NCBI GenBank assembly: GCA_963783305.1
Contig: CAWAMW010000011.1
Location: forward strand, 105,318-169,317
DNA from: an uncultured Gemmatimonadales bacterium
Lineage (GTDB): Bacteria; Gemmatimonadota; Gemmatimonadetes; Longimicrobiales; RSA9
Direction: 5' to 3'
DNA length: 64,000 bases
Below, in pieces: positions 40,801 to 52,800 of this stretch. How positions within the stretch are numbered: the stretch's first letter is position 1; every line of letters begins with the position of its first letter. The position numbers were made by a program.

Positions 40801-43800
40801 CGCGTTGACCCGTTCCCGTCCGTCGGGATATCTTCCATCCTCTCCCCCCGCACACGCACCCGACCGCCCATGATCCAACGGCCCGAGGCCGTCACAGGCG
40901 CCGGACCCGAGGCCGGGGGCCGTCCCCGAGCGGCTCGTCGCTCGGCCATGTCCGAACGCGACGTGTCCATTCTCCGCTCGTTGGCCGACCGCATCGACCC
41001 CGGGGACGCTGGCGCCCACAACAACCTCGGAGTCCTCTTCTTTCAGAAGGGGCTCTTCGACGACGCGGTGGCCGCCTTCGAACGGGCGCTCGAGCTCGAT
41101 CCGCGACTGGAAGTGGCGCGCCAGAACGCCGAGATCGCGTTCAAGGAGAGCGGCCATTTCGAAGAGCGCGTGCGCTCGCTTCGCGAGGCTCTCCGCGCCG
41201 ACCCCGCCAGCGCCGACAGCCGCGACGCCCTCGCCCGCACCTACCTGATGGGCGGCGACCCCGCGAGTGCGGCGGCCGAGTGGACGGCGCTGCTCCGGCA
41301 GTACCCCCAGAGTACTCCGCTCCACATGAAGCTGGCGTACGCGGAAGCCGAACGCGGCCGCGTGCAGGTGGCGGTCCACCTGCTGGAGGAGGCCGCGCGC
41401 CTCTCCCCGGAGTTGGCCGCCGTCCGGCTCCAGCTCGCCGAGCTGATGCTGGACACCGGAATGCCCGTCCGGGCCGAGCGCGAGGTGCGGCGCGCCGTCG
41501 CACTGGATCCGATGGCGTCGCGGGCGCAGCAGTTCCTCGCTCGCCTGCTGGAGGAGACCGGCCGGACGGAGGAGGCCACGGAGGCGCTGGAGCGGGCGAA
41601 GGAGCTGGACCCGGCGGCGGGCAGCTCGACCGGGCATCTGTCCCTCGACCGGTACCGCTCCGCGGCGCGGGCAAAACGCAGGCGCGAGGGTCGGCCCGAG
41701 CCGGTGACAGAGGCGGGGCTCGGCGGTCTGGCACGCGCGACGGAGCTCCGCCGGAACGGCAACCTGCGGGGCGCCGCGGAGGAGCTGGAACGGGAGCTGA
41801 CGGCCGGCGACGCGTCGCTGGAGGTCCGGCAGGCGAGCGCCGAGATCCACCTTCTCATGGGCGACCTCGAGGCGGCGGCCGACGCCTACGGTGCTCTGGT
41901 GGCGGAACGGGAGGACAGCCCCAAGCTCTGGAATGAGCGCGGGGTCGCCGTTCACCGTCTCGCCCGGTTCGATGAGGCCGTGCACGCGTACCGCCGCACC
42001 GTTGCCCTCGACCACGCCTACTCCCTCGGCTGGAACAACCTGGGGGTGGCGCTGGCTCAGAGGGGGGAAGAGGGAGCGGCCGAGCGAGCGCTCCGACAGG
42101 CGACCGCGGGGACGGCGCCGCCCGAGATTCTGTGGAATCTGGGGTTGTTCCTCACCCGCTTGGAGCGTCCTGATGAGGCGGTGGAGACCTATCGGGAGGC
42201 GCTTGAGATCGACCGCTCCTCCGCCGAGTCGTGGGCACGCCTCGGGAGCGCTCTCTTCCAGGCACGAGAGCCGGCGGGCGCACGGGACGCGCTGCTCCAG
42301 GCGCTGGAGCGCGATCCGGATCTGGCGGACGCCCGCTATCAGTTGGGCTTCGCCCTCTCCGCCCTCGGAGACTTCCGCGGCGCGTTGAGGGAGACACAGC
42401 GCGCGCTGGAGCAGGCGCCCGTCATCCCTACCCCACAGTACCAGCTGCTCATCGACGCCCAGTTCGAGGACGGCACGCTCCCAGCGCCCGAGACTACCGA
42501 GGGGGAGCGGGTTCCATCCGGATCCCCCGTGGCCGGGTTCGATTTCGAACCGAAGTCTCTCGACAATGCCTTCGCCGGGTTCAGGCCCCGGGACCCCTCG
42601 CCGGGCACCGCGGAGATCCAGACGTTCGTCGACGAGGGCCGGACCGCGCTCCGCCGTGGCCAGCTCAGGAAGGCCGCGGCGGCGGCAAGCCGCGCGGTGC
42701 GGGCGGCGCCAGAGGCGCTGGATCCGCGGCTGATCGAGGGGGAGGTGCTCCTCCGACAGGGGCTGGCGGGCGAGGCGCTCGAGCGATTCGAGGGCGTGCT
42801 CAGGGGCGAGGCCGATACCCGGCAGGTGCGGGAGGCGCTCACCGGCCGCGCCCGTGCGCTCCTCGACCTGGGTCGAGCCAAGGACGCGATTGCGGCCGCG
42901 CGTGCGGTGGAGGACGCCGGGGGCGGGGGATCGTTCACGGCGCGGGCGCTCCTCGCCGCCGAGCGGTGGACGGACGCAGTGTCGGCGTTCGAGCGGGCGG
43001 TCCAGAACGGCGAAGTGGACGCTACCACCCTGGCAGGGTACGGCAGTGCGCTGCTCGGCGCAGGCCGACCGGCGGACGCGCGAAAAGTGTTTACCCGATC
43101 GCTGGCCACCAGCCCCTCCGTAGCCGCGCGGGTGGGTCTGGGGCAAGCTCTCGAGGCCCTGGGCGACCGCCCTGGCGCCATGAGGGCGTACCGGGAAGGA
43201 GTCACCGCGCTGCCGAGTTACGGCCCGGCCGTCCTGAGGCTCGCCATGGCGGAGTGGCGATCGGGGAAGGCCCAGGACGCCGTCCGATCACTGGTCCAGT
43301 TCCTCGACCTCGACCCGACGCACGTGGCCGCGCTGGTCCAGCTGGGCACCTGGCTCGGAGAGCTCGGACGGGTCGAGCAGGCGCTGCGGTCGCTCCATCG
43401 AGCGTTGAGCCTCGATGCGGGGAACGCAGAGGCGCGCCGGGAGCTCGAGCGCTTGAGCGCCGCCGGAAGGGGGGGCTGAGTGCCCATCGAGGGACCGCTG
43501 AAGGAGCTCGGGATCCAGGACGTGCTCCAGATGCTCGACCTGGCGCAGAAGACCGGCATCCTGACCGTGCGCTCGCAGCGCATGATGGATGAGGCGGTGG
43601 TCCATATGCTGGACGGTGAGCTCGTCTTCGCAAGCCGTCGTCGGTCCATGCGCCTTCTCGGTCAGCAGCTGCTCCGGGACGGGAAGCTGACGGAGAAGGA
43701 GCTCGAGCGGGCGCTCGAAATGCAGCGTCGCGACTCGAAGCAGCGGCTGGGAGCCATCCTCGTGGAGATGGGGAGCGTGGATCGGAGCGAGCTCGACCGG

Positions 43801-49800: not shown

Positions 49801-52800
49801 TGCTCTTCGCGGGCGAGATCGCCGCCGCCGCCGAAGCGCTCGACGAGTACCGCACCATGCTCCACCCCGACACGCTCCCGCCCGCGCCCTACTACTACTG
49901 CGTCGGGCTCGCCGCCACCGTGGCCGGCCGCATGGAGGACGCCGACGCTCTCCTCGATGAGGCGCTCGGGGCCCATCCCGCATCGCCGCCGCTCCACCTC
50001 CTGGCCGGGAACCTGGCGGAGAGGCGGGCCGATATGGCGGCGGCCGAGCGCTCCTACCAGCAGGCCGCCGAAGAGGACCCGGCGCTCGCACAGGCGCATC
50101 GAAATCTCGGCGACCTGGCAAGCCGGCGGGGCGTGGACCGAGAGGCCCTCGAGCACTATCGCCGGGCCGCCGAAGTGGACGCCTCGCTGGGGGACGAGCT
50201 CTACATGCGGCTCGCCGACCTGCACTACCGCCACAACGCCCGGGAGGAGGCGATCCGCTGCTGGAGGCGTGCCCTGGAGCTGAACCCCGGGAACCAGGTG
50301 GCTCGGAACCACCTCGAGCTGGTGGCCCGTGCCGCCCGCTGACAAGAGCGGCTCGGGCCGGCCCAGGGAGGGCCCGCAGAACGAACGGGCCCGCGCCCTC
50401 GTGTGGAGGAGCGGAGATGCCCTCCTGGCCGTTCCTCTGGCCGCGGTGCTGGAGATCGCCGCCCCCGACGCCGACGGGCGCGTTCGGAGCCGCGTCGGGT
50501 CCCTCCCTGTCAGCACGGTCCCCGGATTGCCGCCGGCCGCGAACCCACCCCGCGCGGTCGTGATACGGGCGGGAGGCGCCACCGTGGCTCTCGCCGCGGA
50601 TGATGTGGAAGGGGTTCGCGAGTACACCGCGCGCGAGAGTGCCCGCACACCGCCCTGGCTCCGGCTGCTCAACATTGACCATCTCGCGGGTCTGGTGAGG
50701 CTCGACGAGGGTCGTGTCGCCGCCCTGCTCGCCGTCGAAACCCTGCACCCGTCGTGAATCCGCCGCGACGCGGTCGTTGCGCCAACCGGCGGCTCGTTCC
50801 CGCCGCGCTGCTGCTCACCGCCTTCTGTGCCCTCGCGACCTCCTTCGCCCCTGTGTCCGCCCAGGATGCGGTCCGGGCCGGAGAAGTGACGCTCCACTTC
50901 TGGCCACAGCAGCGGGCGCTCGCGACGCAGATCGTTACGCGGATGGCGGAGCAGCTTCCGCTCCCCGCACTGCCCGATTCGGTCCTCGTCGGCGGCACCG
51001 TCGACGTGTACCTGGCCTATGATGCAGCGCGGTGGGACAGCCTTACCGGCGGTGCGGCACCGGAGTGGGGCGCGGGTGTCGCCGACCCGGCCGCGGGTCT
51101 CATCGTCCTCCCGACCTTCGACTGGGAGCGCACCCCGCCGCACACGATCTACCGCACGCTCCGGCACGAGCTCGCCCACGTGGCGCTCCAGCGCTACCTC
51201 GGCGAGGCCAGAATCCCGCGGTGGTTCAGCGAGGGGTACGCGCAGTGGGCGGCGGGGGAGTGGCGCTGGGAATCCGCATGGCAGCTGCGGATGGCCTTCG
51301 TCCGCAGCGACTCGCCGCCCCTCGACTCCCTGACCCTCCACTGGCCCGTCGCGGAGACCGACGCTCGCCTGGCGTACCTGCTGTCTGCCAGCGCCGTGGC
51401 CTACCTGGTGGAGCGAAGCGGTGAGCGGGGCATTCGCATCCTGCTGGAGCAGTGGCGGGAGGATGTCGACTTCGATGCCGCCTTCCGCTCCGTCTACGGC
51501 CTCACGATCGGCCAGTTCGAGGAAGACTGGCGGGCGTACGTGAAGCGCACCTACGGCTGGACCGTCGTCCTCGGCCACTCCCTCTTCTTCTGGGTGATCG
51601 CCGCCGTCCTTCTGCTGGTCCTCTTCTTCATTCGACGACGACGCGACCGCGCCCGACTCGACACGCTCAGGGCCACCGAGCCCCCGGACGATCCCGCCTA
51701 CTGGGAGATCGACTTCGACCCGCCGCTTCCGCCCCGCCCCGGCGAACCCGCGCCGCCGGGTCCGCACGTTGACCCGGGCGGATGATCGGCTATCTTTCCC
51801 CCATGATTCAACAGAAAACGCACGTACAGAAGCACCTCCCCCCGTCTCTCAAGTGGACCTCGGTCAACTACGGTCTCATGGGAGCGGGGCTGCTGTCCCT
51901 GGTCGGGGGGTTCTTCCTGCTGGCGAACGCCTCGACCGTGGCCGCGCCCCTGCTGCTGGCCCTCGGATACGTGGTGCTGATCCCACTCGGGATCGTCCGG
52001 TAGACACAACCCGGTTTCGGGCGCGTAGCTCAGCTGGTCCAGAGCGCCTGCTTTACACGCAGGATGTCGGGGGTTCGAATCCCTCCGCGCCCACTTCTCC
52101 CTCCACCCTGACACTCAGGCGACCATGCCGTTCAAGGTCCGGCTCATAGAGCAGGGGGCGGTCCTCCTCGTCCGCGCCGTGGGCGTAGCCGAACCCCGAG
52201 ACTGGTTCGACCTCGCCGACCGCGCACGCATGGATGGGCGTTCCCCTCGTGGTCTCATCATTGACCTGCGACGCAGGGAGACCCTGCCCTCGGCCGACCA
52301 GGCGCGCGAAACCGGCAGCGGGCTCGCCGGTGTGGCCGTGCACCGATTCGACGCCATCGCGCTCGTGGCTCGCCCCGGCGCCCAGTTCGGACTCGCCCGC
52401 ATGGTGGCCCTGTTGACGGAGCTCGAGGAGCTGTCCACAGCTGCGTTCCAGGAGCCGAAGCCGGCGCTGGAGTGGATCCGGCAGCGACTCGAGGAACGGG
52501 CGGTGGGCGGCTCCTGAGGGGCTGAGCCATACCCCCTGCGGAGGGGACCACCCGTCACCCGGGGCAGGGGTCTCACCGACGCCCGGATGGGGGTTTTCCC
52601 CCCTTGTTGTGCGTCATGGCTCGTGCGAGGTTTCCCCCGTCGCAAGGAACGACTCGGACGGGCGGGGAAAAGGGAAATAATGGCGACGAACGAGGCCAGG
52701 GCGTCGGGTGGAACCGGAATCGTGCTGCTGAACCTCGGCGGTCCGGAGACCGTCGAGGATGTCGGGCCGTTCCTCCTGGAGCTGTTCGCGGACCGCGAGA

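What a model noticed while it worked through the whole genome (the two positions that open the first line are those of the whole stretch)
40948..52003. Tandem DnaA/Hda-type AAA+ protein embedded in an MglA-MglB-PATAN-CheW polarity operon
An 11-gene same-strand operon (g01905-g01915) strings TPR and PATAN(DUF4388)-TPR proteins, three Roadblock/MglB-like proteins and a second MglA-like GTPase around g01911, a 607-aa protein made of two DnaA/Hda-type AAA+ modules joined by a long helical linker, with no DnaA domain I, II or IV. Boldest reading: a replication-initiator ATPase was duplicated and co-opted as an ATP-driven switch or scaffold of a small-GTPase polarity/motility module, possibly coupling it to the cell cycle. 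New would be a non-replicative job for the DnaA AAA+ fold and a missing component of bacterial MglA/MglB systems.
Evidence so far: pfam.tsv: Bac_DnaA 5-165 (E 5e-52) and 373-516 (E 2e-30); the true dnaA is g00819 on C2. All 11 genes on the + strand with gaps of at most 7 nt or overlaps of at most 14 nt; NCBIfam labels the two PATAN proteins g01906 and g01912 'cyclic di-GMP-binding domain-containing'. neighbours.tsv: Bac_DnaA next to PATAN in >=254 of 457 Longimicrobiales and >=1425 genomes overall; Robl_LC7-Arf 2521 genomes. 35 homologs aligned: Walker A G48-G50-K51-T52 and Walker B D107-D108 invariant in module 1; module 2 Walker A lysine not invariant; C-terminal W595-P596-Y597 invariant. 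AF2 pLDDT 83: AAA+ with lid 1-225, helices 237-355, AAA+ core 365-516, disordered tail. The survey of prokaryotic small GTPases (PM [...]
(Added by a program. Inside this text positions count along the whole contig: contig position 105,318 is position 1 of the stretch shown here. "Call 12" and the like, gene names such as g00115 and contig names such as C1 are that model's own, and its searches are not shown. The text may have been shortened before it was handed on; [...] marks where a part breaks off. The agent that wrote the report below was given it as the finding of a first reader that could run no searches.)

Follow-up and report, generated by a model that had tools for sequence, protein, structure and literature searches.

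The report
DnaA-derived double ATPase in MglA/PATAN operon
A soil bacterium of the phylum Gemmatimonadota carries a protein made of two copies of the ATP-binding engine of the replication initiator DnaA, without its DNA-recognition parts, built into a cell-polarity signalling operon where it most likely helps to control type IV pili, not replication.

Summary
Eleven + strand genes (40948-52003) are packed with gaps of at most 7 nt or overlaps of at most 14 nt. They encode TPR, PATAN-TPR, three Roadblock proteins, an MglA-type GTPase, a 607-aa tandem DnaA-domain-III protein, a second PATAN-TPR, a CheW remnant, an HExxH peptidase and a small membrane protein. The true dnaA and a canonical mglBA pair lie on other contigs.

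This scan has reported the same system more than ten times in other Gemmatimonadota genomes. New here:
1. The conserved C-terminal peptide of the ATPase is predicted to dock in the TPR groove of the PATAN-TPR protein encoded next (ipSAE 0.69, best control 0.00). That gene junction overlaps or abuts in 16 of 20 relatives.
2. The ATPase-PATAN pair persists where MglA is absent (2 of 20 loci).
3. Elsewhere, DnaA-type modules are fused to MshEN (a c-di-GMP receptor domain) and lie beside pilB in 3 of 3 contigs. Others are fused to TPR or REC domains.
4. In the window's order, the ATPase co-occurs with PilB (20/20 against 2/38) and not with flagella (4/11).
5. This window holds a trimmed version: no Che core, and a degenerate module 2.

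Function is inferred, not shown.

The parts
40948..43479 (+). TPR-repeat protein, 843 aa (an alternative ATG lies at 40870)
   Evidence: Pfam TPR families. Syntenic in 18 of 20 relatives.
43480..44598 (+). PATAN(DUF4388)-TPR protein 1, 372 aa. The MshE-related c-di-GMP motif is at residues 60-112 (nt 43657-43815).
   Evidence: Pfam DUF4388 109.6 bits. NCBIfam NF053729 41.5 bits (cut-off 38). The first 24-residue motif is imperfect: its Arg is shifted by one residue (read from the sequence against the motif quoted).
44595..45461 (+). TPR-Roadblock fusion protein, 288 aa
   Evidence: Pfam TPR_19 and Robl_LC7 (31.8 bits).
45458..45808 (+). Roadblock/LC7 protein 2, 116 aa
   Evidence: Pfam Robl_LC7 24.3 bits. 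Start codon checked.
45805..46290 (+). Roadblock/LC7 protein 3, MglB-like, 161 aa
   Evidence: Pfam Robl_LC7 35.4 bits. NCBIfam MglB (Thermus type) 47.9 bits, below its cut-off of 200.
46290..46892 (+). MglA-type small GTPase, 200 aa (P0002)
   Evidence: Pfam Arf 32.8 bits. The sequence shows GPARSGKTT, TVPGQ and NKQD. 57% identical to the mglA next to an MglB-like gene on C16. Lies directly upstream of the ATPase in 18 of 20 loci.
46900..48723 (+). Tandem DnaA-domain-III AAA+ protein, 607 aa (P0001)
   Evidence: Pfam Bac_DnaA in two stretches. AF2 pLDDT 87.4. Foldseek match to 8bv3_A, TM 0.94, rmsd 1.5 A.
46912..47604 (+). Module 1 (residues 5-235): a complete DnaA-type AAA+ module with lid. 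It has Walker A GLGKT (48-52), Walker B DD (107-108), box VII SDR (140-142) and sensor 2 NVRE (204-207).
   Evidence: PDB alignment to B. subtilis DnaA domain III, E 2e-54. These motifs are invariant in 21 of 21 relatives.
47659..47979 (+). Helical linker domain (residues 254-360), a five-helix bundle
   Evidence: AF2 model of this part alone, pLDDT 93.8. No informative fold or sequence match.
48016..48459 (+). Module 2 (residues 373-520): a degenerate DnaA-type core. Walker A is GSGRST (Lys replaced by Arg), box VII reads SAN (no Arg), and there is no lid.
   Evidence: Most relatives (about 650 aa) keep a lid with an SVR motif.
48649..48720 (+). Conserved C-terminal peptide (residues 584-607, consensus SREKxVWxWPxxxxRLxEE) at the end of a disordered tail
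   Evidence: Present in 20 of 21 relatives. It is the only part of residues 256-607 predicted to touch the PATAN-TPR protein.
48723..50342 (+). PATAN(DUF4388)-TPR protein 2, 539 aa. Its start shares one base with the stop codon of the ATPase gene. The MshE-related c-di-GMP motif is at residues 57-110 (nt 48891-49052). The predicted peptide-binding TPR groove is at residues 282-493 (nt 49566-50201).
   Evidence: Pfam DUF4388 125.5 bits. NCBIfam NF053729 46.4 bits. Adjacent to the ATPase gene in 50 of 50 loci. Predicted interface.
50329..50757 (+). Truncated CheW-like protein, 142 aa
   Evidence: Pfam CheW 33.3 bits, covering profile positions 59-133 only. No tblastn match in the 20 related loci.
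50754..51785 (+). Membrane-anchored HExxH peptidase (Peptidase_MA_2), 343 aa. It has an N-terminal signal-like segment, a C-terminal transmembrane helix and a cytoplasmic tail.
   Evidence: Pfam 51.8 bits. Found downstream in 19 of 20 loci. Tails aligned.
51782..52003 (+). Small hydrophobic protein, 73 aa, no family
   Evidence: Weak tblastn matches in 4 of 20 loci.

Best explanation
WHAT IT IS. The 607-aa protein is a non-replicative descendant of the DnaA ATPase domain. Module 1 is an intact, DnaA-like ATP-binding and ATP-hydrolysing unit with its arginine finger. Module 2 is a second DnaA-type core that has decayed in this lineage into a structural or regulatory pseudo-ATPase.

HOW IT IS HELD. 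A disordered tail ends in a conserved peptide. That peptide plugs into the TPR groove of the PATAN-TPR protein encoded directly downstream. This ties the ATPase to a probable c-di-GMP receptor.

WHAT IT DOES. Together with the MglA-type GTPase, three Roadblock proteins and further TPR/PATAN scaffolds, it forms a multi-nucleotide (ATP, GTP, c-di-GMP) switch assembly. By analogy with DnaA, ATP in module 1 would drive head-to-tail association through the arginine finger, between modules or between molecules. That association would turn the scaffold on or off. The most likely output is the placement or activity of type IV pili.

SHOWN AND INFERRED. Shown: anatomy, motif conservation, synteny and phyletic patterns. 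Predicted by a model: the tail-TPR contact. Inferred: ATP-driven assembly, c-di-GMP input and the type IV pilus output.
For: NOT AN INITIATOR.
- No domain I or IV family appears among its Pfam hits.
- The true dnaA is on C2.

MODULE 1 IS UNDER SELECTION AS AN ATPase.
- G48, G50, K51, D107, D108, D141, R142, V205 and R206 are invariant in 21 of 21 relatives.
- Walker A is intact in 40 of 40 distant homologs.
- The fold matches B. subtilis DnaA domain III: TM 0.94, rmsd 1.5 A.

MODULE 2 IS DEGENERATE.
- Its Walker A is intact in 26 of 40 homologs. In the window it reads GSGRST, and box VII reads SAN.

CONSERVED CONTEXT.
- The tandem protein is in 197 of 301 sampled genomes of the phylum (my cut at E 1e-100; 193 of 297 without four unpublished genomes).
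- A PATAN-TPR gene follows directly in 20 of 20 and in 30 of 30 loci. MglA lies directly upstream in 18 of 20 and in 29 of 30.
- The stop of the ATPase gene overlaps or abuts the PATAN-TPR start in 16 of 20 loci, and in the window.
- Two loci keep only ATPase-PATAN-peptidase, and the tail peptide is kept there.

BINDING PREDICTION.
- Median ipSAE is 0.69 and the best of 3 controls is 0.00.
- This mark was reached by 116 of 157 solved complexes and by 2 of 215 mismatched pairs. These counts hold only roughly, because I supplied my own alignments.
- The runs share at least 54% of contacts. Partner pLDDT is at least 72.
- The interface is tail residues 582-607 against TPR residues 282-493.
- Both sides change together between clades. 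Tail R601 goes with TPR E327 in most loci. W601 goes with R, M or D at 327 in the window's family. Tail D/E597 goes with N426-N427, and Y597 with L426-L427. This amounts to about two independent events.

FUSIONS ELSEWHERE.
- MshEN plus two DnaA modules, 1867-2013 aa.
- TPR repeats plus one DnaA module, about 1365 aa.
- Tandem DnaA plus REC.

LINK TO TYPE IV PILI.
- MshEN-DnaA genes lie beside pilB, pilT and pilD (with pilC in L064), or beside pilB-pilS-pilR, in 3 of 3 contigs examined.
- In the window's order, 20 of 20 genomes with the tandem protein have a PilB match at E 1e-157 or better, against 2 of 38 without it.
- FlhA is present in only 4 of 11 genomes with the tandem protein.
- In Synechocystis, PATAN-REC (PatA-type) response regulators interact with the pilus motor, and PixE with the motor ATPase PilB1 (bioRxiv 10.1101/2021.06.11.447907: title and passages).
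- MglA, a TPR protein and a c-di-GMP receptor form a pilus-pole hub in Bdellovibrio (PMC3983030, abstract).
Against: - No experiment exists on any member of the family.
- The binding result is a model's confidence. TPR grooves accept many peptides. The operon's three other TPR proteins were not tried as competitors, and module 1 was left out of the job.
- Predicted interface residues are only marginally more conserved than the rest of the TPR domain (mean 0.64 against 0.58, one-sided p 0.07).
- No pil gene lies in the window, and I did not look for pil genes in the 20 related loci.
- PilB occurs without the tandem protein in families f7 (21 of 23), f9 (3 of 3) and f10-f12 (19 of 19). The link therefore runs one way only. 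The joint absence in two genera of the order could reflect general genome reduction.
- On the tree, the modules of the MshEN-fused proteins do not fall inside the Gemmatimonadota module 1 or module 2 clades. They lie nearer to true DnaA. They may be an independent recruitment, so they give an analogy and not orthology.
- Most relatives embed the string in a Che operon, which would also fit a chemosensory-array role.
- The inter-module geometry is unknown (pTM 0.51).
Confidence: 0.55

Rival explanations
1. Replication or cell-cycle coupler. Module 1 keeps DnaA's oligomerisation surfaces and its arginine finger. It would co-assemble with the true DnaA, capping its filament or stimulating its ATP hydrolysis as Hda does. 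Polarity and c-di-GMP signals would then gate initiation.
For: - Module 1 is 48% identical to the genome's own DnaA domain III.
- A module 1 profile scores true DnaA (median 213 bits) far above module 2 (121 bits).
- The box VII arginine is invariant in 21 of 21 relatives, even though module 2's ATP site is often dead. The finger may therefore act on some other ATP site.
- NCBIfam's DnaA equivalog model is passed (384.9 against 343.9 bits).
Against: - No replication gene lies in the window's string or among the ORFs examined in L043 and L047.
- The Hda models score below their cut-offs (155.3 against 194.8 bits).
- The N-terminus (MPLDLDPRF) does not show the clamp-binding motif that I recall for Hda.
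- All fusion partners found are signalling or scaffold domains (MshEN, TPR, REC), with none for replication.
- The family was not found in 104 of 301 genomes of the phylum, all of which must still regulate DnaA.
Confidence: 0.12
2. Accessory of a chemosensory array. The ATPase, with the PATAN/TPR proteins, would assemble, position or remodel the array formed by the Che proteins that flank the string in most relatives. The output could be flagellar.
For: - In relatives the string lies between CheY-CheA-CheC and CheR-CheD-CheB-CheW.
- One homolog replaces the tail with a REC domain.
- The window keeps a CheW-like remnant.
- The downstream peptidase weakly resembles flagellinolysin (38.2 bits, cut-off 205).
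Against: - The window keeps the whole MglA-ATPase-PATAN string without any Che core. The genome's other Che proteins are only 32-44% identical to the operon-linked set of a genome of the same family.
- Two loci keep the ATPase-PATAN pair directly after rluD, with neither the MglA part nor the upstream CheY-CheA-CheC block.
- FlhA was not found in 7 of 11 genomes with the tandem protein; these genomes are 95-99% complete.
Confidence: 0.15
3. Nucleic-acid-handling AAA+ protein of the DnaC/IstB kind (a loader or transposition helper), or a decaying duplicate of dnaA with no function of its own.
For: - Pfam IstB_IS21 56.9 bits and NCBIfam IS21 helper 86.5 bits.
- Basic residues persist at the position of DnaA's single-strand-binding 'KER' segment. 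R469 is conserved in 90% or more of sequences in module 2, and module 1 reads R-R there in the consensus. The role of this segment in DnaA is recalled, not tested here.
Against: - The IstB and DnaC models score far below their cut-offs (86.5 against 200; 23.6 against 357).
- No transposase lies nearby.
- Catalytic motifs are invariant, the frame is intact, and the gene sits at a fixed chromosomal place after rluD in genomes from several families. This argues against both decay and mobility.
Confidence: 0.04

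Closest known systems
DnaA, bacterial replication initiator, domain III (e.g. B. subtilis 8BV3/8BTG, T. maritima 2Z4R, A. aeolicus 1L8Q/2HCB/3R8F)
   Same: Module 1 has the same fold (TM 0.94, rmsd 1.5 A) and all the ATPase motifs, including box VII and sensor 2. It is 43% identical to 8bv3 in the structural alignment. Module 2 has the same core.
   Different: There is no domain I, II or IV. It has two modules in one chain, a helical linker of its own and a C-terminal docking peptide. It is encoded in a signalling operon, while the true dnaA sits on another contig.
Hda/HdaA, the DnaA-related inactivator of DnaA
   Same: It is a DnaA-domain-III-only protein that works through protein contacts and not through origin binding.
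   Different: The Hda models are not reached (155.3 against 194.8; 59.5 against 268 bits). Solved Hda-like chains match only at E 1e-6. It is tandem and not single. There is no replication context.
Myxococcus xanthus polarity module (MglA, MglB, MglC, RomR/RomX) with the Frz chemosensory system and the TPR effector SgmX
   Same: It has an MglA-type GTPase with Roadblock partners and TPR proteins. In relatives a dedicated Che set sits in the same gene string. MglA with SgmX stimulates type IV pili (PMC7519303 and PMC7668184, search listings only).
   Different: No AAA+ protein is described in that module. The survey of prokaryotic small GTPases does not contain the word DnaA (PMC4316618, term search). 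This window also lacks the Che part.
Bdellovibrio pole hub: MglA, TPR protein Bd2492, RomR and the c-di-GMP receptor CdgA
   Same: A small GTPase, a TPR scaffold and a c-di-GMP receptor are combined at a type IV pilus pole (PMC3983030, abstract).
   Different: The c-di-GMP receptor there is a degenerate GGDEF protein, not a PATAN protein with an MshE-type motif. No DnaA-like ATPase takes part.
PatA-type (PATAN-REC) regulators of cyanobacteria and MshE-type pilus ATPases with an MshEN domain
   Same: The PATAN domain is linked to PilB1 and to pilus polarity (bioRxiv 10.1101/2021.06.11.447907, passages). The 24-residue RLGxx... motif pair that binds c-di-GMP in MshEN (PMC5013675, passages) is present inside both PATAN proteins.
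   Different: Here PATAN is joined to TPR repeats, not to REC. The associated ATPase is of the DnaA type, not a PilB/MshE secretion ATPase.

Membership tests
DnaA (chromosomal replication initiator) | AAA+ domain III with Walker A/B, box VII arginine and sensor 2 | tested here: met
   Module 1: Pfam Bac_DnaA, residue alignment to 8bv3, fold match. Module 2 has only the core, with a degenerate Walker A and box VII.
DnaA (chromosomal replication initiator) | C-terminal DNA-binding domain IV and N-terminal domain I | tested here: not met
   Neither family appears among the 12 Pfam hits at E 0.01 or better. The region after module 1 is a helical bundle with no DnaA likeness.
DnaA (chromosomal replication initiator) | The single initiator gene of the genome | tested here: not met
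   A full dnaA (485-aa frame, 243 bits) lies on C2. The NCBIfam DnaA equivalog cut-off is passed (384.9 against 343.9 bits) only because two modules add up.
Hda / HdaA | Score above the curated family cut-off; single domain III | tested here: not met
   TIGR03420 155.3 against 194.8 bits; NF005982 59.5 against 268; NF051883 32.6 against 300. The architecture is tandem.
Hda / HdaA | N-terminal clamp-binding motif (recalled from memory) | not tested
   The N-terminus reads MPLDLDPRF. No formal motif search or clamp docking was run.
DnaC / IstB helper ATPases | Score above the curated family cut-off | tested here: not met
   NF038214 86.5 against 200 bits; NF005931 23.6 against 357.
Type II (double-ring) AAA+ unfoldases such as p97, Rix7, ClpB | Two classical-clade AAA+ modules that superpose as a unit | tested here: inconclusive
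   Foldseek lists them, but with rmsd about 20 A and TM 0.21-0.32. Both modules match the DnaA family by sequence.
MglA family of small GTPases (for the 200-aa protein) | P-loop, TVPGQ switch II with Thr in place of Asp, NKxD, and a Roadblock partner next door | tested here: met
   The sequence shows these motifs. It is 57% identical to the mglA beside an MglB-like gene on C16. A Roadblock gene lies directly upstream. That these motifs define MglA is recalled.
MglB (GAP of MglA) | Roadblock/LC7 fold and the family-level score | tested here: inconclusive
   Robl_LC7 is above its cut-off in three proteins. The NCBIfam MglB equivalog scores 47.9 against 200 bits for the third one and has no hit for the others. 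GAP activity cannot be tested here.
PATAN (DUF4388) proteins with an MshE-type c-di-GMP site | DUF4388 domain, and two 24-residue RLGxx(L/V/I)(L/V/I)xxG(L/V/I)(L/V/I)xxxxLxxxLxxQ motifs | tested here: met
   Pfam 109.6 and 125.5 bits. NF053729 41.5 and 46.4 bits against a cut-off of 38. Motif text from PMC5013675. In the first PATAN protein, motif 1 has its Arg shifted by one residue.
PATAN (DUF4388) proteins with an MshE-type c-di-GMP site | Binding of c-di-GMP | not testable with these tools
   Needs a binding assay.
Frz-like chemosensory-polarity supercluster | A dedicated CheA, CheW, CheY, CheB and CheR in the same gene string | tested here: not met
   Present in relatives but not in this window. 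rluD directly precedes the TPR gene, and only a truncated CheW-like gene follows the second PATAN gene.

The most novel reading that the evidence does not exclude
The ATPase engine of the replication initiator has been recruited as a regulator of type IV pili, possibly more than once.
- In Gemmatimonadota it is a tandem DnaA-type protein. A C-terminal peptide tethers it to a c-di-GMP-sensing PATAN-TPR scaffold, and it is coupled to an MglA GTPase.
- In other lineages it appears as MshEN-DnaA fusions encoded beside pilB.

In this reading, ATP-dependent, DnaA-style head-to-tail assembly is the third nucleotide switch, beside GTP and c-di-GMP. It decides where and when the pilus motor is built.
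Probability: 0.3. Interest if true: 0.85.

Novelty: new variant of a known kind. Interest (0 to 1): 0.74.

Why it matters
- DnaA-type ATPases are textbook replication proteins. A conserved, catalytically intact copy working inside a small-GTPase and c-di-GMP signalling module would be a new job for this fold. It would also be a new kind of component for bacterial polarity and pilus control.
- The finding gives concrete, testable handles: a peptide-TPR contact, a Walker A lysine, an arginine finger and two c-di-GMP motifs. They lie in a phylum (Gemmatimonadota) whose cell biology is almost unstudied.
- There is a practical point. The protein passes NCBI's DnaA equivalog cut-off, and some sources name its relatives 'chromosomal replication initiator protein'. 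Genomes of this phylum therefore risk being annotated with two initiators.

Tried and rejected
- LINKER DOMAIN (residues 254-360). The Atlas feature search gave no usable hit. A profile search of PDB sequences gave nothing better than E 0.07. The fold search over 48,161 chains gave a best Z of 6.6, to generic helical bundles (Embp, EbhA, EzrA). For helical bundles this is within chance.
- L006. The one non-Gemmatimonadota locus of the genome-contig scan is a chance match to a glycosyltransferase.
- TAXONOMY OF DISTANT AND FUSED HOMOLOGS. Two cluster look-ups gave names only for Gemmatimonadota members. The organisms behind the fused forms remain unknown.
- GIANT MshEN-DnaA PROTEIN. It was not found in 201 Gemmatimonadota genomes at E 1e-100, under a stricter filter that the tool itself flagged.
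- FIRST METAGENOME SCAN. The scan with one fused protein found nothing. The second, with an alignment, mostly returned ordinary dnaA genes, and only 3 loci were relevant.
- ROOTING THE MODULE TREE. Rooting with a weak AAA+ hit from C15 gave a long branch that attached inside module 1. I dropped it. Without an outgroup the order of duplication is open.
- EXPRESSION. No RNA holder was listed for the stretch, and no reads were laid.
- p97/Rix7-type matches of the whole model have rmsd of about 20 A and were disregarded.
- PEPTIDASE TAIL. I looked for a second docking motif in the cytoplasmic tail of the peptidase. I found only a clade-specific 'PAYW' or 'GW' after a conserved basic stretch, and did not pursue it.
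- LITERATURE. Searches combined these terms: MglA, PATAN and DnaA; DUF4388, Roadblock and Gemmatimonadota; DnaA-like, paralog and motility; Pfam accessions; MshEN and DnaA; Gemmatimonas, MglA and pili. In the listings shown, no paper describes a DnaA-like ATPase with MglA, PATAN or pili. The library holds open-access papers and bioRxiv only. Makarova et al. 2006 on PATAN was not available to me.

Full report
1. WHAT IS IN THE WINDOW

The region has about 70% G+C. Between 40948 and 52003 there are eleven + strand genes. Their junctions are 0, -4, -4, -4, -1, +7, -1, -14, -4 and -4 nt.

Pfam and NCBIfam give this order:
- a TPR protein (843 aa);
- PATAN/DUF4388-TPR (372 aa);
- a TPR-Roadblock fusion (288 aa);
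- two Roadblock proteins (116 and 161 aa), the second of them MglB-like;
- an MglA-type GTPase (200 aa; GPARSGKTT, TVPGQ, NKQD);
- the 607-aa tandem Bac_DnaA protein;
- a second PATAN-TPR (539 aa);
- a truncated CheW-like protein (142 aa, only profile positions 59-133);
- a membrane-anchored HExxH peptidase (343 aa);
- a 73-aa hydrophobic protein.

tRNA-Val follows at 52019-52094. Upstream lies the housekeeping block yggS-divIVA-ileS-dksA-like-lspA-rluD. The genome has its true dnaA on contig C2 (243 bits). It also has a canonical mglB-mglA pair on C16.

2. ANATOMY OF THE 607-aa PROTEIN

Module 1 (residues 5-235) aligns without gaps to B. subtilis DnaA domain III at E 2e-54. It superposes on 8bv3 with TM 0.94 and rmsd 1.5 A. 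It keeps Walker A (GLGKT), Walker B (DD), box VII (SDR) and sensor 2 (NVRE). In 21 relatives from different families of the phylum these residues are invariant. In 40 representatives at 50% identity or less, the Walker A of module 1 is intact in all 40.

A confident five-helix linker follows (residues 254-360; pLDDT 93.8 when folded alone). It has no informative match.

Module 2 (373-520) is a second DnaA-type core. In this window it is degenerate:
- Walker A is GSGRST, with the lysine replaced by arginine.
- Box VII is SAN, so there is no arginine.
- There is no lid.

Most relatives are about 650 aa long and keep a lid with an SVR motif after module 2. The window's family thus has a reduced form.

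Across 40 homologs, module 2 tends to keep either its ATP site or its arginine finger, not both:
- Walker A intact, 26 homologs: 9 have the arginine.
- Walker A degenerate, 14 homologs: 10 have the arginine.

These rows are related, so the pattern is descriptive only. It fits a head-to-tail, DnaA-like use of the finger on the always-intact site of module 1. The geometry could not be checked, because pTM is 0.51 and no coordinates were returned.

Profile cross-scores show that both modules are closer to true DnaA than to each other:
- module 1 profile: DnaA 213 bits, module 2 121 bits;
- module 2 profile: DnaA 182 bits, module 1 149 bits.

Both modules are therefore old derivatives of a DnaA-like ancestor.

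3. DISTRIBUTION AND CONTEXT

The family is large. There are 4835 hits among 8000 scored candidates, and sources call them 'DnaA/Hda family protein' or 'chromosomal replication initiator protein'. Among 50% representatives, 4236 score E 1e-30 or better, but this number includes true DnaA.

I searched 301 genomes of the phylum with a profile of 40 tandem proteins. True DnaA alone scores about 1e-79 to 1e-94. The tandem protein scores 1e-100 or better. With that cut I counted 197 of 301:

| family group | with tandem protein |
|---|---|
| f1 (own family) | 6 of 7 |
| f2+f3 | 14 of 51 |
| f4 | 121 of 125 |
| f5 | 52 of 69 |
| f6 | 1 of 1 |
| f7 | 0 of 23 |
| f8 | 3 of 3 |
| f9 | 0 of 3 |
| f10-f12 | 0 of 19 |

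Four unpublished genomes (G057, G182, G157, G097) are in these tallies. Without them the count is 193 of 297.

In 20 loci of 20 kb from genomes of six family codes, tblastn with the window's proteins shows:
- PATAN-TPR directly after the ATPase gene in 20 of 20;
- MglA directly before it in 18 of 20;
- the peptidase downstream in 19 of 20.

Two loci of the window's order (L045, L046) have only rluD-ATPase-PATAN-peptidase.

Thirty further top-scoring loci, all from family f4, give PATAN-TPR in 30 of 30 and MglA in 29 of 30; the one miss is cut by a contig end. Without the unpublished L014 the figures are 29 of 29 and 28 of 29.

By my start-codon choices, the ATPase stop and the PATAN-TPR start share one base (12 loci) or abut (4 loci), so 16 of 20 in all. 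The window also has the one-base overlap. The mglA-ATPase junction overlaps in 10 of 18.

In two of these loci whose flanking ORFs I scanned (L043, L047), the 3-4.5 kb between PATAN-TPR and the peptidase holds CheR-CheD-CheB-CheW (L043) or CheB-CheW-CheW-TPR (L047). CheY-CheA-CheC precede the TPR gene in both. A gap of that size recurs in most of the 20 loci.

The window lacks all of these. Its genome has two other CheA genes, seven MCP genes, a flagellar FlhA and seven T2SSE-family ATPase matches, the best of which passes the PilB cut-off. Its Che proteins are only 32-44% identical to the operon-linked set of a same-family genome. The window therefore holds a Che-less, trimmed version of the cluster.

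4. WHO DOES THE ATPase TOUCH?

The last 25 residues, at the end of a disordered tail, form a conserved peptide with consensus SREKxVWxWPxxxxRLxEE. It is present in 20 of 21 relatives. The exception looks frameshifted. The peptide is kept in the two MglA-less loci. This pointed to the PATAN-TPR protein as its partner.

I used the single complex job on full PATAN-TPR against residues 256-607 of the ATPase, each with a 21-row alignment from the same genomes. The verdict was 'supports binding':
- Median ipSAE is 0.69 (runs 0.77, 0.69, 0.68). The best of three controls is 0.00.
- This mark was reached by 116 of 157 solved complexes and by 2 of 215 mismatched pairs. The counts hold only roughly here, because my own alignments were used.
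- The runs agree in at least 54% of contacts. Partner pLDDT is at least 72.
- Only tail residues 582-607 touch. They lie along the concave face of TPR residues 282-493. The least-error pairs include 457:590, 461:590, 324:602, 321:602/603 and 389/392/423:595.
- Groove residues N321, D464 and G490 are invariant, and N461 is 95% conserved.

As a set, however, the interface is only marginally more conserved than the rest of the TPR domain (0.64 against 0.58, p 0.07).

Both sides change together between clades:
- Tail R601 goes with E327 in most loci. W601 goes with R, M or D at 327 in the window's family.
- Tail D/E597 goes with N426-N427. Y597 goes with L426-L427.

This amounts to about two independent events. 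It is consistent with the contact but weak. Module 1 and the operon's other three TPR proteins were not tested.

5. FUSIONS AND A LINK TO TYPE IV PILI

Longer relatives show DnaA-type modules fused to the very domain types that the neighbouring PATAN-TPR protein carries:
- an N-terminal MshEN domain, then two complete DnaA modules separated by about 1200 helical residues (1867-2013 aa);
- about 1100 residues of TPR repeats, then one DnaA module (about 1365 aa);
- a tandem protein with a REC domain in place of the tail.

The giant form was not found in 201 Gemmatimonadota genomes (strict filter).

Three metagenome contigs carry MshEN-DnaA genes. All three place them in type IV pilus clusters:
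- L064: pilD, three MshEN-DnaA paralogs, a TonB_C protein, pilB, pilT, pilC and a PilS-like kinase.
- L063: the same order, with a pilin-like gene.
- L126: MshEN-DnaA, pilB, pilS, pilR.

There is a caveat. On a tree of 115 modules, the Gemmatimonadota modules 1 and 2 each form a supported group (39 of 40 rows, SH-aLRT 97). The fused modules lie outside both and nearer to true DnaA. The fusions may therefore be a separate recruitment. They show what DnaA-type modules get used for, not orthology.

Phyletic patterns point the same way. In the window's order, all 20 genomes with the tandem protein have a PilB match at E 1e-157 or better (18 of them at 1e-217 or better). Only 2 of 38 genomes without it reach that level. 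Without the unpublished G097 the first figure is 19 of 19.

Flagellar FlhA is found in only 4 of the 11 genomes with the tandem protein in the order sample. Without G097 it is 4 of 10.

Outside the order, PilB is common without the tandem protein: f7 21 of 23, f9 3 of 3, f10-f12 19 of 19. The implication therefore runs one way only.

Published work agrees with the direction:
- Group 1 and group 5 MglA genes are occasionally near PATAN genes (PMC4316618, passages).
- MglA, a TPR protein and a c-di-GMP receptor form a pilus-pole hub in Bdellovibrio (PMC3983030, abstract).
- The MshEN motif pair binds c-di-GMP (PMC5013675, passages). Both PATAN proteins here pass NCBI's model of that motif.

6. 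READING AND RIVALS

Best reading (0.55). This is a non-replicative DnaA-derived ATPase. A peptide-TPR contact tethers it to a c-di-GMP-sensing PATAN scaffold. It is coupled to an MglA/Roadblock switch. It acts by ATP-dependent association, most likely on type IV pilus placement or activity.

Sub-claims differ in strength:

| sub-claim | confidence |
|---|---|
| not an initiator | about 0.9 |
| PATAN-TPR is a direct partner | about 0.65 |
| pilus output | about 0.45 |

Rivals:
- A DnaA-capping cell-cycle coupler (0.12).
- A chemosensory-array accessory (0.15).
- A nucleic-acid helper or a relic (0.04).

7. NOVELTY

The literature searches found no description of a DnaA-like ATPase together with MglA, PATAN or pili (open-access papers and bioRxiv only). 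The small-GTPase survey does not contain the word DnaA.

This scan has already reported the same system in more than ten other Gemmatimonadota genomes. Those notes gave me two leads, the Che bracket and the separable ATPase-PATAN pair, and I re-tested both here.

The components are known kinds: AAA+ initiator-clade ATPase, MglA, Roadblock, PATAN and TPR. The combination and the role of the DnaA fold are undescribed. I rate it a new variant of a known kind.

Noticed in passing
window 35782-38956 (+): ileS appears split into two overlapping frames. 35782-37914 holds tRNA-synt_1. 37820-38956 holds Anticodon_1 plus DUF5915. This is a frameshift or an assembly error near 37820-37914.
   Followed up: partly
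window 34414-40808 (+): The housekeeping block yggS-divIVA-ileS-dksA/traR-like zinc finger-lspA-rluD lies directly upstream of the operon. rluD also precedes the ATPase-PATAN pair or the cluster in several relatives (L045, L046, L051, L053, L054, L061). The cluster therefore sits at a fixed chromosomal place.
   Followed up: partly
window 30984-34266 (+): A CdaA-type c-di-AMP synthase (30984-31775) is followed by ExbB-ExbD-ExbD-TonB (31888-34266).
   Followed up: no
window 17196-20307 (+): FtsB/DivIC (17196-17537) is followed by a pilin-like protein with an N-terminal methylation motif (17713-18399) and two PEP-CTERM proteins (18839-19564 and 19702-20307; the latter has a CHRD domain).
   Followed up: no
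window 52587-62432 (+): A heme biosynthesis cluster lies after tRNA-Val: hemH, a cytochrome c assembly protein, hemA, a class-III aminotransferase (hemL-like), hemE and a hemN-like radical SAM gene.
   Followed up: no
window 46900-48723: The tandem protein passes NCBIfam's DnaA equivalog cut-off (384.9 against 343.9 bits), because two modules add up. JGI names many relatives 'chromosomal replication initiator protein'. This is an annotation trap.
   Followed up: yes
L063 2974-21709; L064 3910-24906: These type IV pilus clusters come from unnamed metagenome contigs. Each holds three paralogous MshEN-DnaA-type genes (about 420-480, 980 and 2000 aa) and a TonB_C protein between pilD and pilB. L063 also holds an MshEN-only gene and a protein with a T9SS sorting tail.
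   Followed up: partly
proteins P0279-P0283, P0185, P0244, P0237, P0252: Other architectures with a DnaA-type module: TPR repeats plus DnaA module (about 1365 aa); tandem DnaA plus REC (738 aa); DnaA module plus DUF835 (719 aa); and proteins of 1250-1350 aa with one DnaA module, one of them (P0237) also with zinc ribbons. Their contexts are unknown.
   Followed up: partly
alignment A1 (40 homologs), module 2: Module 2 tends to keep either its Walker A or its box VII arginine, not both. The arginine is present in 9 of 26 homologs with Walker A intact, and in 10 of 14 with it degenerate. This hints at two functional subtypes of the family.
   Followed up: partly
window 51560-51785 and the peptidase genes of L043-L062: After its transmembrane helix the HExxH peptidase has a conserved basic stretch (RRRRDR). 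A clade-specific aromatic motif follows: PAYW in the window's relatives, GW elsewhere. It may be a cytoplasmic docking site.
   Followed up: partly
L059 8713-10704 (-): The tandem ATPase gene of this relative loses the conserved C-terminal peptide, apparently through a frameshift near its end.
   Followed up: no
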